This document shows positions 60,750-63,869 of a stretch of DNA of 64,000 nt, piece after piece. The notes below the pieces were generated by a model. It saw nothing but the letters and a program-made list of their open reading frames with translations. It did not search any database and was not told the origin of the DNA. The number at the start of each line of letters is the position of its first letter. The stretch's first letter is position 1. Made by a program: the position numbers and the translations under genes. The DNA lies in the NCBI RefSeq assembly GCF_054482595.1, contig NZ_CM137008.1. One strand, written 5' to 3'.

Positions 60750-63700
60750 TTAAACCTCCTCCGCAAACATCAGGTTCAAGAATTCAGGTTCGATCTGGCG
60801 GATTTTCAGGCTACGAACAATCTCGCCGTCTTCTTCATCAACGGTAAAGGCGGTAGGCAAGTTATGATCGCCATTGATATAGATAACGTCATACGTGTTT
60901 TCTTTTGCATACAAATCAAATCGGTTAGCATATTTATTCAATTCTTCATAACCGATCTTGTCGCAATCGCGCCACAGAATAAGGGTACGCTCGCCTGTTG
61001 GCAGCGTACCTTCAACACGCACATAGCCACGTTCGATATTGGATTCGATGGATTTCACATGTAATCCAATGAGATAGTTGAAAGTTTCAACTAAATCGAT
61101 GTTTTTACGCTCAGTGGCACCGGCGGAATCCGTCGCAATATCCATTTCGTAGTTAAATGGTTTTTTGAAATTATCGATTCCGAGAAAAGAATCTTTACTC
61201 TCATTTTTAATGAGATAATTTAATAGATAATCATTCCTCACATCTGAAGGCAATGTTTCGAAAAGATCTATGGGAGATTTTTTCAGTACTATATTATTTA
61301 AGCAATCTTCATAGCTTTCTAGTTTAATTGTTTTAAGAATATGTGATATACCGTTTTTATCCTGTGGATAACCTTTATTCCACTTATCGCTATAAACGGC
61401 TTTTACAATTCTAGCTTTTATAACTGAATCAGAATGTTCTCCCATTTCAACTAATATATATTTATGATCTTCAGATTTTTCTCTATTTCTATTAATAACA
61501 GCATGTGCGGTGGTTCCACTGCCGCCAAAAAGATCGACTATGGTTTCATTATTAGCACTATGCCATACTGAATCAATAACGCGTTCCATAGTACCTAAGG
61601 ATTTTGGATAAGAAAACAAACCTGCAGAGCCAAACATGGACGTTAATAAATTTGTGCCACCTATGGTAGCATTATATTGTGATCCTTGCCAAATACTAGG
61701 AAGCAGTAACCTTCTTGCGCTATCATGATATAATCTGTTTATGACAAATTTGTTTGAACTTACCAATTCACCTACTTCAATTGCTTTTTTAGCCCCTTCA
61801 TAAGAAAGCGACCAAACTCTTTCTTCCCCATTCTCACCAATGGGATAGACTCTTTTTAAACCTTCTTTGGTTTCACCTACCGGATAATTACCTTTTTCTA
61901 AAGGAACAGGTGGTGGTTCGACTCCTTTAACTTCAAATGTATCAGGGTCAACCAAAACTGCAAAAAAGCTTTCTGGACGACCAGGATTACCAATCCTAAA
62001 ATTATTATCTCCGGTACCAGCTCTTCTAAAACCTCTAGTTCGAATTCCATCCTCCACACTATCCCCTTTGAGAATATCCATTCCTTCTGGTATAGAAAAC
62101 AGACAATATTCATGTGTTCTCGAAACATTTGTTCTACCTGTCCCAGACCCAGGATAGTGCTCAACGATACATTGTAAAACCTCTCTTTCTGGATTGATAC
62201 TTTTTTCCAATTCTTTTAAAAGAGACATTTCTGTATCATCAATAGCATAACAAAAAACACCGTTATTATTTAATAGTTTTTTAGATAAAATGATTCTATC
62301 AGCCATTAATGTAGCCCATGAAGAATCCTTATATCCATTTTTATATAAGATAGGAGTTGCATCAGTATTATATGGTGGATCAAGATATATTATGCTTGTA
62401 CTTTTATCAAACTTAGTCTCAAGGATTTTTAGGGCTTGATAATTTTCAGAGTTGACCAATAGCCCATTAATCTCATTATCAATATTATCAATTGATCGAA
62501 TCAGTTCACATTTAAATTTAGAATCAAAAAAAGTAGTATCAACCATCAGATATGGTGAACTCTTGAGAAATTTCATATCCCGAGAGTTATGCTGTTGAAA
62601 TAGACCTAGCGTACTCCAATGTTTAAATTGTTTATCATTTACTAATATAGTTTGATAAAGAGCATCTGGAATTCTATCTAAAGTAATACAGTATTCCGTA
62701 GAAACAACAAACTTCTTCTTAGTCCAAAGTTTTTTCTGGAAATTCTCAATTTGTGCCAAAAATGTAATGAGTTCCAGTGCAACAGTACGCAAACATTGAA
62801 TCATGCGCAATTGTTTCTCAATATTGGCAAACACTTCTGCATTTTGCACATTATCGAGATTCATTACTTCATTTTTAATATAAAAATCCAGTTCGTTCGT
62901 TAAAAAACCACCGAGATCTTTATGGATAAAGTAGTCTGCTGTATTACGCTGGGTATAAGTTGTAAGGTGACGCTCCAACTCTGTACGTGACGGATTTTTT
63001 TCTGTTGGCGCACGTTTAGCAAGATCAACCCAATGCTGTTGAACTGTTTTATCTGCCAGAATTGTTGAAATAGCGGACTGTACTAAAGCATCCTGCTTAG
63101 TGCCCTTTTTCATTGCCTTATATTCGAAGTGAATAACTAACTCTTCTGTTTCAACGAGTTTACCGTCCACCACAGATGAGTTTTTCACCACTTCTACTGG
63201 CTTATATTCTTGTTCATACTCATCACCTTCTTCATCAATTTTGGTACGAACATGTGGCTCAATAAGTACAAAGCAGCGATCTAATTCATTATCCTTACGG
63301 TTATCTTTTGCTGTGTCCGCTGCGAGCAATTTAAAGCTAACTTTACGACCATCATCTAATTTAAATGAATAATTAGCAAAGTTTTCGCCACTTTTAATGT
63401 AGTACTGGTCCTTATTTGCCCAGTGCAACATCACTTCTTCGCCAGAATAAGGGATGGCGTAGGTATTACCTTTATAACGGCGTTTGCTGATAAAATCGCC
63501 GTTGTCATAATAACGAGAAAAGAAAGTGAGCAGATGGGAAAATACTGCATTTTCATGCTCATTTGCTCCGGATGCCATAGCCGCCAGTTGCTTTTTAAGC
63601 TCCTGTACTTTCGGGCTATCAGCAGGGTCCACACCCGCATCAGTTGCCGCTTTTATTGTCAGTTGCAACTGATGTTCTAATTCTGATTTATTGGCATTTC

Positions 63701-63869
63701 CTGCATCCGCCAGCGCAGACTGGATTTTGGCCTTCAGCTTATTATCCAGATAGTCGTTAATTTCATCAGCACGTGCATTTAAAATACGATAAATACCGAA
63801 ATCCAGTTCTGGTCGATCAATCTGAAAAATTTCTTTTAGCTTCTTAACTAATTCGTTGTACTTACTCAT
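60750..63869 (-). CDS. Type III Mod-like beta-class DNA methyltransferase (N6-adenine or N4-cytosine) with a ~450-aa N-terminal extension of unknown function, ~1039 aa
   Basis: Motif IV IIYLDPPYNT precedes motif I VDLFGGSGTTAHAV by about 260 aa (circularly permuted beta-class order, as in Type III Mod). Start is taken at the ATG at 63869 (purine-rich SD) rather than the ORF-track TTG at 63884. Confidence 0.75.
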   Translation of the reverse strand: MSKYNELVKKLKEIFQIDRPELDFGIYRILNARADEINDYLDNKLKAKIQSALADAGNANKSELEHQLQLTIKAATDAGVDPADSPKVQELKKQLAAMASGANEHENAVFSHLLTFFSRYYDNGDFISKRRYKGNTYAIPYSGEEVMLHWANKDQYYIKSGENFANYSFKLDDGRKVSFKLLAADTAKDNRKDNELDRCFVLIEPHVRTKIDEEGDEYEQEYKPVEVVKNSSVVDGKLVETEELVIHFEYKAMKKGTKQDALVQSAISTILADKTVQQHWVDLAKRAPTEKNPSRTELERHLTTYTQRNTADYFIHKDLGGFLTNELDFYIKNEVMNLDNVQNAEVFANIEKQLRMIQCLRTVALELITFLAQIENFQKKLWTKKKFVVSTEYCITLDRIPDALYQTILVNDKQFKHWSTLGLFQQHNSRDMKFLKSSPYLMVDTTFFDSKFKCELIRSIDNIDNEINGLLVNSENYQALKILETKFDKSTSIIYLDPPYNTDATPILYKNGYKDSSWATLMADRIILSKKLLNNNGVFCYAIDDTEMSLLKELEKSINPEREVLQCIVEHYPGSGTGRTNVSRTHEYCLFSIPEGMDILKGDSVEDGIRTRGFRRAGTGDNNFRIGNPGRPESFFAVLVDPDTFEVKGVEPPPVPLEKGNYPVGETKEGLKRVYPIGENGEERVWSLSYEGAKKAIEVGELVSSNKFVINRLYHDSARRLLLPSIWQGSQYNATIGGTNLLTSMFGSAGLFSYPKSLGTMERVIDSVWHSANNETIVDLFGGSGTTAHAVINRNREKSEDHKYILVEMGEHSDSVIKARIVKAVYSDKWNKGYPQDKNGISHILKTIKLESYEDCLNNIVLKKSPIDLFETLPSDVRNDYLLNYLIKNESKDSFLGIDNFKKPFNYEMDIATDSAGATERKNIDLVETFNYLIGLHVKSIESNIERGYVRVEGTLPTGERTLILWRDCDKIGYEELNKYANRFDLYAKENTYDVIYINGDHNLPTAFTVDEEDGEIVRSLKIRQIEPEFLNLMFAEEV

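What the first reader, a model, noticed from the sequence alone, without database searches (positions are those of the whole stretch)
60750..63869. Mod-like methyltransferase carries a ~450-residue N-terminal extension with no recognisable motif
The methyltransferase catalytic motifs occupy only the C-terminal half (DPPY near residue 540, FGGSGTT near residue 800). The preceding ~450 residues form an additional domain that I cannot assign to any family. It could be a sensor, a Res-docking domain or an effector domain.
Basis: seen in the sequence. Interest (0 to 1): 0.6.

Follow-up and report, generated by a model that had tools for sequence, protein, structure and literature searches.

The report
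Eco86II-type Mod with conserved frame domains
The long N-terminal region is real and has no recognisable relative, but it belongs to a known, tested family of Type III restriction enzymes (Eco86II of E. coli) and evolves in step with the partner nuclease while the methylase core is swapped between strains.

Summary

The window is E. coli, and the locus is an allele of the characterised Type III system Eco86II of strain NCTC86. The Res protein accession is identical. The Mod N-terminus is 99% identical and the C-terminus 97%, but residues ~391-900 are only 28% identical.

The extension marks a large clade of at least 551 species, including archaea. These are long Mod plus long Res pairs, usually with an SNF2 ATPase.

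Across 50 species, N-terminal distances track Res distances (r=0.92), as do C-terminal distances (0.63). The MTase core (0.08) and TRD (0.07) do not. Loci without SNF2 keep every invariant N-terminal residue.

Best reading: the N- and C-terminal regions form a constant frame that assembles Mod with its own Res, around an exchangeable specificity cassette. This is inferred, not shown.

Verdict: a new-specificity member of a known kind, carrying an undescribed domain of unknown fold. Interest is moderate.

The parts
60750..63869 (-). mod gene, 1039 aa: an Eco86II-type Type III methyltransferase (beta class)
   Evidence: The full length matches PADLOC MTase_III model PDLC03646. RefSeq protein WP_021557483.1.
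62700..63869 (-). N-terminal frame, aa 1-390. Conserved and of unknown fold. Predicted as a long helical hairpin (34-120), a low-confidence but most conserved stretch (137-160), a beta region (155-254) and a helical region (259-400).
   Evidence: 98-100% identical between E. coli alleles up to codon ~391.: models.: conservation.: co-variation with Res.
61170..62699 (-). Exchangeable cassette, aa ~391-900. It holds linker helices, the MTase core with motif IV, the TRD, motif I and the first part of the C-terminal region.
   Evidence: only 28-36% identical between E. coli alleles.: across the family, windows starting at about aa 461-801 show r about 0 with Res.
61434..62393 (-). Pfam N6_N4_Mtase domain (aa 493-812). 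DPPY at aa 497-500 (nt 62370-62381) and FGGSGTT at aa 781-787 (nt 61509-61529). The TRD lies at roughly aa 571-755.
60750..61169 (-). C-terminal frame, aa 901-1039 plus the stop codon. The family-specific C-terminal region begins at about aa 830.
   Evidence: 96-97% identical between alleles.: no PDB relative.: r=0.63 with Res.
57367..60747 (-). res gene, 1126 aa. SF2 ATPase (GSGKT at 179, DEGH at 280) plus a C-terminal PD...DxK nuclease motif (P1023 D1024 ... D1043 P1044 K1045). The protein accession is the one annotated in NCTC86, the strain that carries Eco86II.
63890..64000 (-). 3' end of the upstream SNF2/RapA-like ATPase gene (963 aa in full). The rest lies beyond the window end.

Best explanation
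The gene encodes the Mod subunit of an Eco86II-type Type III restriction-modification system. Its first ~390 residues and its last ~140-210 residues form a constant frame. This frame is specific to a large clade of long Mod plus long Res systems.

The frame does not determine sequence specificity. That lies in the central cassette (MTase core plus TRD), which is exchanged by recombination between otherwise near-identical loci.

The frame most likely holds the Mod dimer together and docks the cognate Res helicase-nuclease. In EcoP15I these jobs are done by the short NTD (aa 14-60) and the CTD (aa 539-644). On this reading, any imported cassette is automatically coupled to the resident restriction machinery.

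Shown here: the anatomy, the absence of known relatives, the mosaic structure, the co-inheritance with Res, and independence from SNF2.

Inferred: physical docking or dimerisation as the mechanism.
For: 1. Identity of the system. The window is E. coli. NCTC86, the source strain of Eco86II (m4C at GAGCC, ATP-dependent cutting about 25 bp 3' of the site; PMC8259958), carries SNF2-Mod-Res at the same nan/fim-leuX locus. Its Res accession (WP_001085525.1) is the one annotated in the window's strain.

2. Mosaic alleles. Three E. coli Mod alleles were compared. They are 98-99% identical over aa 1-395, 96-97% over aa 895-1039 and only 28-36% over aa 400-890. The DNA breakpoints are at codons ~391 and ~901.

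3. The same pattern holds across the family in 50 species (Mantel tests).
- N-frame vs Res: r=0.92, p=0.0005.
- C-frame vs Res: r=0.63.
- N-frame vs C-frame: r=0.63.
- MTase core vs Res: r=0.08, not significant.
- TRD vs Res: r=0.07, not significant.
- In 40-aa sliding windows, r is 0.4-0.83 for windows starting at 1-341. It declines over 361-461, stays near 0 for windows starting at 481-801, and is 0.42-0.78 for windows from 841.

4. Conservation. N-frame motifs score 0.72-0.87, which equals or exceeds MTase motifs IV (0.67) and I (0.76).

5. Res always follows Mod where the flank is long enough. SNF2 is absent from about 10 loci, and those loci keep all invariant N-frame residues.

6. In EcoP15I the NTD forms the dimer interface and the CTD contacts Res (PMC4490356).

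7. The most conserved stretch (aa 137-160) stays at low pLDDT in both the isolated and the full-length model. This is as expected for a segment ordered only by a partner.

8. The N-frame is net acidic apart from one basic helix, which argues against a general DNA-binding role.
Against: - No contact between the frame and Res was computed or measured. No multimer prediction was available.
- Distance-matrix correlation shows co-inheritance, and this would also arise if recombination were simply confined to the cassette for any other reason.
- About a dozen invariant polar residues (R119, D125, N152, D154, Q155, K159, D312, H316, E326, E375, K386) are more than a passive scaffold usually needs.
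- M.Eco86II methylates fully without Res (PMC8259958), so the frame is at least not a Res-dependent switch for methylation.
Confidence: 0.55

Rival explanations
1. The N-terminal region is the docking site for the upstream SNF2/RapA-like ATPase. It would recruit a third motor to the Mod-Res complex.
For: - SNF2 is adjacent in most loci, either 5' of mod or 3' of res.
- SNF2 distances correlate with the N-frame (r=0.71) about as well as with Res (r=0.72).
- The association was noted in more than 500 genomes (PMC8259958).
Against: - About 10 loci, most with 9 kb of flank on both sides, have no SNF2. These include a haloarchaeal plasmid and loci whose upstream genes are housekeeping, such as mfd.
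- Those loci keep every invariant N-frame residue and the same conservation profile.
- No SNF2 peptides were found in the active Eco86II fraction, and SNF2 was not needed for methylation (PMC8259958).
Confidence: 0.12
2. The N-terminal region is an enzyme or nucleotide- or ligand-binding regulatory domain of a new fold. It would provide a second activity, or an allosteric switch coupling the Res ATPase state to Mod.
For: - It is the most conserved part of the protein, with about a dozen invariant polar or charged residues.
- It is conserved from E. coli to haloarchaea.
Against: - No nucleotide-binding or nuclease signature survives inspection. K147 of a possible ExK is Met in this protein.
- The GAF matches are below any convincing threshold.
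Confidence: 0.18
3. The N-terminal region is a sensor of phage infection or of DNA state.
For: Large extra domains in defence proteins are often sensors.
Against: - Sequence conservation is very high: 45-60% identity across phyla and 33-37% to archaea. Invader-sensing surfaces typically diversify.
- Eco86II behaves as an ordinary sequence-specific Type III enzyme in vitro (PMC8259958).
Confidence: 0.05
4. The N-terminal region contacts DNA away from the recognition site, as a clamp or ruler used for sliding or for setting the cleavage distance.
For: - There is an invariant basic helix, FQKKLW(L)KKKF, in a segment (aa 346-400) with mean net charge +4.4.
- There is a long helical hairpin at aa 34-120.
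Against: - The rest of the N-frame is acidic, about -10 over aa 1-345.
- No DNA-binding fold was detected.
Confidence: 0.1

Closest known systems
Eco86II (E. coli NCTC86) and BspHIV (Acinetobacter sp. [quoted passage not shown] 2021 (PMC8259958)
   Same: - Same chromosomal locus and the same three genes, SNF2-mod-res.
- Identical Res protein accession.
- Mod N-frame 99% and C-frame 97% identical.
- Beta-class Mod with DPPY.
   Different: - The central cassette (aa ~391-900) is only 28% identical to M.Eco86II. The recognition sequence must therefore differ, and the modified base (m4C or m6A) is unknown.
- That paper does not mention the N-terminal extension.
EcoP15I / EcoPI, canonical Type III RM (structure 4zcf; PMC4490356)
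   Same: - Beta-class Mod with motif IV, TRD and motif I in that order.
- Adjacent Res with an SF2 ATPase and a C-terminal PD-(D/E)xK nuclease motif.
- The MTase core is detectably similar.
   Different: - EcoP15I Mod has 644 aa, with a ~50 aa NTD and a ~105 aa CTD. Here the protein has 1039 aa, with a ~390-450 aa N-terminal and a ~210 aa C-terminal region that have no counterpart.
- This Res has no detectable sequence similarity to any PDB chain, including EcoP15I Res.
- An SNF2 gene is usually present.
SNF2-methylase pairs of DISARM class 1 (DrmD-DrmMI), BREX type 3 (BrxHII-PglXI) and ARMADA (ArmA-ArmB)
   Same: - The upstream ATPase matches a PADLOC DrmD model (E 3e-198) and BrxHII models, and RapA in the PDB.
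- It sits next to a methylase.
- In other E. coli strains ARMADA II occupies O-island 172 of EDL933 (10.1101/2025.09.22.677730). From my own recollection this is also a leuX island; I did not check that here.
   Different: - Those methylases are gamma-class and PglX-like (NPPW), and those systems are built around YprA/DrmAB helicases (10.1101/2025.09.15.676423).
- Here the methylase is beta-class and the effector is a Res-type helicase-nuclease.
- The N-terminal region hits no DISARM, BREX or ARMADA model.
Allelic TRD shuffling in Type III mod genes (Haemophilus, Neisseria and Helicobacter mod alleles; from my own knowledge, not checked here)
   Same: Conserved ends flank a variable middle that sets specificity and is exchanged by recombination.
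   Different: Here the exchanged block is the whole MTase fold plus the TRD (about 510 aa), and the conserved ends are family-specific domains rather than the catalytic halves.

Membership tests
Type III RM, Mod subunit | Beta-class amino-methyltransferase: motif IV (DPPY) lies N-terminal of motif I (FxGxG), with the TRD between them | tested here: met
   DPPY at 497, FGGSGTT at 781, Pfam N6_N4_Mtase at 493-812. The variable TRD lies at about 571-755.
Type III RM, Mod subunit | Sequence similarity of the MTase core to characterised Type III Mods | tested here: met
   Mbo45V 7dsu (E 5e-20), 6k0w and EcoP15I Mod 4zcf, over residues 452-815 only. Thirteen PADLOC MTase_III models match.
Type III RM, Mod subunit | Canonical domain layout: short NTD (~50 aa), MTase, TRD, CTD (~100 aa), as in EcoP15I | tested here: not met
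   The N-terminal region is ~390-450 aa and the C-terminal region ~210 aa, and neither has a counterpart (PMC4490356).
Type III RM system | Adjacent Res subunit with an SF2 ATPase plus a C-terminal PD-(D/E)xK nuclease | tested here: met
   GSGKT at 179, DEGH at 280, and P1023 D1024 ... D1043 P1044 K1045 kept in at least 95% of 51 aligned rows, one of which was later found to be a mis-assigned Mod. Pfam ResIII hits weakly. PADLOC REase_III matches the full length. There is no similarity to any PDB chain, including EcoP15I Res.
Type III RM system | One-strand methylation of an asymmetric site, and ATP-dependent cleavage about 25 bp 3' that needs inversely oriented sites | not testable with these tools
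   Shown for Eco86II (PMC8259958), whose source strain NCTC86 carries a Res with the same protein accession as the window's strain. Not shown for this allele.
Eco86II/BspHIV subgroup (Type III with an extra helicase-like ATPase) | A conserved SF2 ATPase gene without a nuclease motif, 5' of mod | tested here: met
   SNF2-related protein of 963 aa, ending 20 nt upstream of mod.
Eco86II/BspHIV subgroup (Type III with an extra helicase-like ATPase) | Orthology with the Eco86II locus | tested here: met
   Same locus in NCTC86. Same Res accession. N-frame 99% and C-frame 97% identical.
Eco86II/BspHIV subgroup (Type III with an extra helicase-like ATPase) | m4C as the protective modification | not testable with these tools
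   The cassette is only 28% identical to M.Eco86II. Motif IV is DPPY in both, so it does not discriminate.
DISARM class 1 / ARMADA / BREX type 3 | PglX-like gamma-class methylase (NPPW) | tested here: not met
   Beta-class DPPY enzyme. No PglX, DrmMI or other such model is hit.
DISARM class 1 / ARMADA / BREX type 3 | YprA/DrmA-DrmB (DUF1998) helicase, or a PglZ/BrxC core | tested here: not met
   The operon has three genes only. The third is Res-like.

The most novel reading that the evidence does not exclude
The N-terminal ~390 residues are a new-fold functional domain. It would be either a second catalytic activity or an allosteric switch that transmits the Res (and SNF2) ATPase state to the Mod dimer. 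On this reading Eco86II-type enzymes are mechanistically distinct from EcoP15I-type Type III enzymes and not merely larger.
Probability: 0.18. Interest if true: 0.7.

Novelty: new member of a known kind. Interest (0 to 1): 0.4.

Why it matters
The system itself is an ordinary member of a published Type III subgroup, though with a new and unknown specificity.

What is worth knowing is that this subgroup is widespread: at least 551 of about 100,000 species genomes, including archaea, and 191 of 5426 complete E. coli genomes. It carries about 600 residues of conserved sequence that nobody has described and that matches no known fold.

The Mod protein is built as a constant frame plus a plug-in MTase/TRD cassette. 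If the frame is the Res-docking platform, this explains how these loci change specificity without losing restriction. It also suggests a way to engineer specificity by cassette exchange.

The analysis also gives a testable handle on the unexplained SNF2 partner, because the frame does not depend on it.

Tried and rejected
1. Apparent homology between the N-terminal region and Res. hhalign gave probability 99.8% and E 1.5e-29. This was an artefact of my own data. The 'Res' row for locus L030 was actually its Mod ORF. After removing it, the probabilities are 0.2% against Res, 1.2% against SNF2, 0.2% against the C-terminal region and 0.2% against the MTase core. The same contamination had lowered the first Mantel values.

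2. ARMADA II, DISARM and BREX-related (BR) systems. I considered them because the SNF2 protein hits DrmD and BrxHII models. I rejected them because the methylase class is different and there is no YprA or DUF499 component.

3. Hma system. Only a partial SNF2 match was found and there was no methylase match.

4. SNF2 docking as the sole role of the region. Rejected because of the SNF2-less loci.

5. PD-(D/E)xK or HKD-like readings of the GEEVK, DQYYIK and FIHKD motifs. K147 is not conserved, the spacing and predicted secondary structure do not fit, and no nuclease appears in the fold searches.

7. AFDB50 returned only members of the same family in its top 50. I therefore could not see whether the domain occurs in other architectures.

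8. Literature searches by protein accession and by COG numbers found nothing relevant.
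Full report
**1. What is at the coordinates.**

The window is E. coli chromosome. It is 100% identical to strain XH990 over the queried stretch, next to the fim and nan genes and tRNA-Leu (leuX).

On the minus strand, 60750-63869 encodes a 1039-aa protein annotated 'DNA methyltransferase' (WP_021557483.1). ATG at 63869 follows a purine-rich stretch, and homologues start at the same place.

[quoted passage not shown] Twenty nucleotides upstream ends a 963-aa SNF2-related protein, which runs off the window.

**2. The observation.**

DPPY is at residue 497 and FGGSGTT at 781. Pfam finds only N6_N4_Mtase at 493-812. Solved Mods align only to 452-815.

Nothing recognisable covers residues 1 to about 450:
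- Pfam finds nothing there in this protein or in any of 92 family members.
- NCBIfam on the whole protein hits only residues 478-577, and PHROGs on the N-terminus alone finds nothing.
- PDB searches by single sequence and by a 39-sequence profile are empty.
- An AF2 model of residues 1-470 is confident (pLDDT 88, pTM 0.70). Foldseek against PDB gives nothing better than E=0.1.

The C-terminal ~210 residues (830-1039) are equally unmatched.

**3. The protein belongs to a known, tested family.**

PADLOC has a full-length model for this architecture (MTase_III PDLC03646, 1-1039 against 1-1057). It has another for the downstream protein (REase_III PDLC03654).

Murray et al. [quoted passage not shown] These are Eco86II of E. 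coli NCTC86 and BspHIV of Acinetobacter sp. H. They carry an extra helicase-like ATPase gene 5' of mod. Their findings for Eco86II were:
- M.Eco86II alone methylates GAGCC to m4C.
- A partially purified preparation contained Mod and Res but no peptides of the extra ATPase.
- That preparation cut about 25 bp 3' of the site in the presence of ATP.

I located the locus in NCTC86 (NZ_LT601384.1, 5046030-5055447). It lies at the same nan/fim position and has the same three genes. Its Res protein accession, WP_001085525.1, is the one annotated in the window's strain.

The paper states that NCTC86 has a single putative Type III system, so this locus is Eco86II. The paper never mentions the N-terminal extension.

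**4. The Mod protein is a mosaic.**

I compared three chromosomal E. coli alleles: the window, L002, and L003, which equals M.Eco86II. They are 98-99% identical over aa 1-395 and 96-97% over aa 895-1039. Over aa 400-890 they are only 28-36% identical. Nucleotide identity collapses at codon ~391 and recovers at codon ~901.

In all, 191 of 5426 complete E. coli genomes carry the locus, and 17 carry this particular allele.

**5. The same modularity holds across the family.**

The N-terminal region defines a large clade:
- 2394 clusters at 50% identity, always at the N-terminus of proteins of about 1000-1100 aa among the 150 listed.
- At least 551 species genomes from many bacterial phyla.
- Plasmids of haloarchaea at 33-37% identity, and none in phages.

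I worked with 50 loci from different species that had complete Mod and Res. One mis-assigned locus, L030, had been removed. I compared pairwise distance matrices:
- N-frame vs Res: r=0.92 (Mantel p=0.0005).
- C-frame vs Res: r=0.63.
- N-frame vs C-frame: r=0.63.
- MTase core vs Res: r=0.08 (p=0.09).
- TRD vs Res: r=0.07 (p=0.07).

The MTase core has about the same mean identity (0.47) as Res (0.45) in the first run, so saturation does not explain the decoupling.

In 40-aa sliding windows, r is 0.4-0.83 for windows starting at residues 1-341. It declines over 361-461, stays near 0 for windows starting at 481-801, and returns to 0.42-0.78 from 841.

SNF2 distances behave like the frame: 0.71 with the N-frame, 0.72 with Res and 0.07 with the MTase core.

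There are thus two evolutionary modules: {N-frame, C-frame, Res, SNF2} and {MTase core, TRD}.

**6. Conservation and structure.**

The N-frame motifs are:
- LDFGIYRI
- FFSRYYDxGDFISxRRY
- YAIPYxGEEVxLHWANxDQYYIKS
- RNTxDYFIHKDLGGFLxxELDFYIKNEV
- FLAQxExFQKKLWxKKKFV

They are as conserved as the catalytic motifs, or more so (0.72-0.87 against 0.67 and 0.76).

The full-length model is confident (pLDDT 85.8, pTM 0.81). However, the most conserved stretch (aa 137-160) stays at pLDDT about 50 in both models. This suggests a segment that needs a partner to become ordered.

The N-frame is net acidic, about -10 over aa 1-345, apart from one basic helix at aa 346-400 (+4.4).

**7. Which partner.**

Res follows Mod in every locus with enough flank. 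Sometimes inserted genes separate them: Abi_2, an AAA_33/zeta-like kinase, or a nucleotidyltransferase.

SNF2 is usually 5' of mod. It lies 3' of res in Pasteurellaceae, Neisseria, Moraxella and Cardiobacterium.

About 10 loci, most with full 9-kb flanks, have no SNF2. In one of them the large upstream gene is mfd. A Haloarcula plasmid also lacks SNF2. These loci keep all invariant N-frame residues and the same conservation profile.

Together with the biochemistry of Eco86II, this makes SNF2 an accessory. It rules out SNF2 docking as the reason for the N-frame.

**8. Mechanism.**

In EcoP15I the short NTD builds the Mod dimer and the CTD contacts Res (PMC4490356). The most economical reading is that the enlarged N- and C-terminal regions do these jobs for a Res family that has no detectable similarity to any PDB chain, including EcoP15I Res. 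Specificity cassettes can then be exchanged without breaking the assembly.

This is an inference from co-inheritance and analogy. No contact was computed. The many invariant polar residues keep an enzymatic or allosteric role open.

**9. An error I caught.**

A striking hhalign match of the N-terminal region to Res (E 1.5e-29) came from one contaminated alignment row. It vanished after that row was removed.

**10. Verdict.**

The system is a new-specificity member of the published Eco86II group. The undescribed conserved frame of unknown fold, and the frame-and-cassette organisation, are the parts worth following up.

Noticed in passing
window 57018-57320 (+): A 100-aa ORF lies convergent with, and just downstream of, res. 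It has no family match. It is conserved at the same position (53-68% identity) on an E. coli plasmid copy of the system (L004) and in Arsukibacterium, Rheinheimera, Shewanella, Pseudomonas and a gammaproteobacterial MAG (L010, L011, L012, L016, L019). It may be a fourth, lineage-specific component or a regulator.
   Followed up: partly
window 55776-56705 (+): A phosphorothioated-DNA-binding HNH restriction endonuclease (NCBIfam NF045808, E 3.8e-130) sits next to the Type III system. An HNH remnant and a truncated sialate O-acetylesterase gene lie beside it. Together they make a small defence islet between nanM and leuX.
   Followed up: partly
window 60750-61380 (-), Mod aa 830-1039: A second family-specific region lies at the C-terminus (~210 aa; conserved motifs include LESYED, VDLVETFNYLIGL and WR). 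It has no PDB or canonical Mod counterpart and also co-varies with Res (r=0.63).
   Followed up: yes
window 63150-63254 (-), Mod aa 206-240: An acidic beta-hairpin insert in the N-terminal region is present in only about a third of family members (occupancy 0.32).
   Followed up: no
L090:2750-4761 (protein P0094, Methylovulum MAG): A homologue carries a DUF559/Vsr-like endonuclease domain inserted in the loop equivalent to aa ~421-437. That is exactly at the boundary between the frame and the cassette.
   Followed up: partly
L041, L043-L046, L049, L052, L063: In Pasteurellaceae, Neisseria, Moraxella and Cardiobacterium the gene order is Mod-Res-SNF2 instead of SNF2-Mod-Res.
   Followed up: partly
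L008:7927-8868 and 12338-13122; L092:10591-12044; L006:7098-9175: Unrelated small defence-type genes are inserted between or after the system's genes in several species. They include Abi_2, an AAA_33/zeta-toxin-like kinase, a nucleotidyltransferase pair and an AAA_15/SMC-like ATPase.
   Followed up: no
L001 versus L095 and L096 (NCTC86): In the window's strain the system lies about 400 nt from tRNA-Leu, in an islet of about 12 kb. In NCTC86 the same system sits at the far end of a leuX island of more than 60 kb, together with fec genes, Ag43, CbtA/YeeU and many IS elements.
   Followed up: no
L092 (Rhodothermus marinus plasmid) and Athalassotoga plasmid hit H65: Shorter Mods (899 aa in Rhodothermus) share only the core of the N-terminal region (aa ~86-426, 23% identity). 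The Rhodothermus one is paired with a long Res and has no SNF2; the Athalassotoga context was not examined. They probably belong to the family of PADLOC model PDLC03638.
   Followed up: partly
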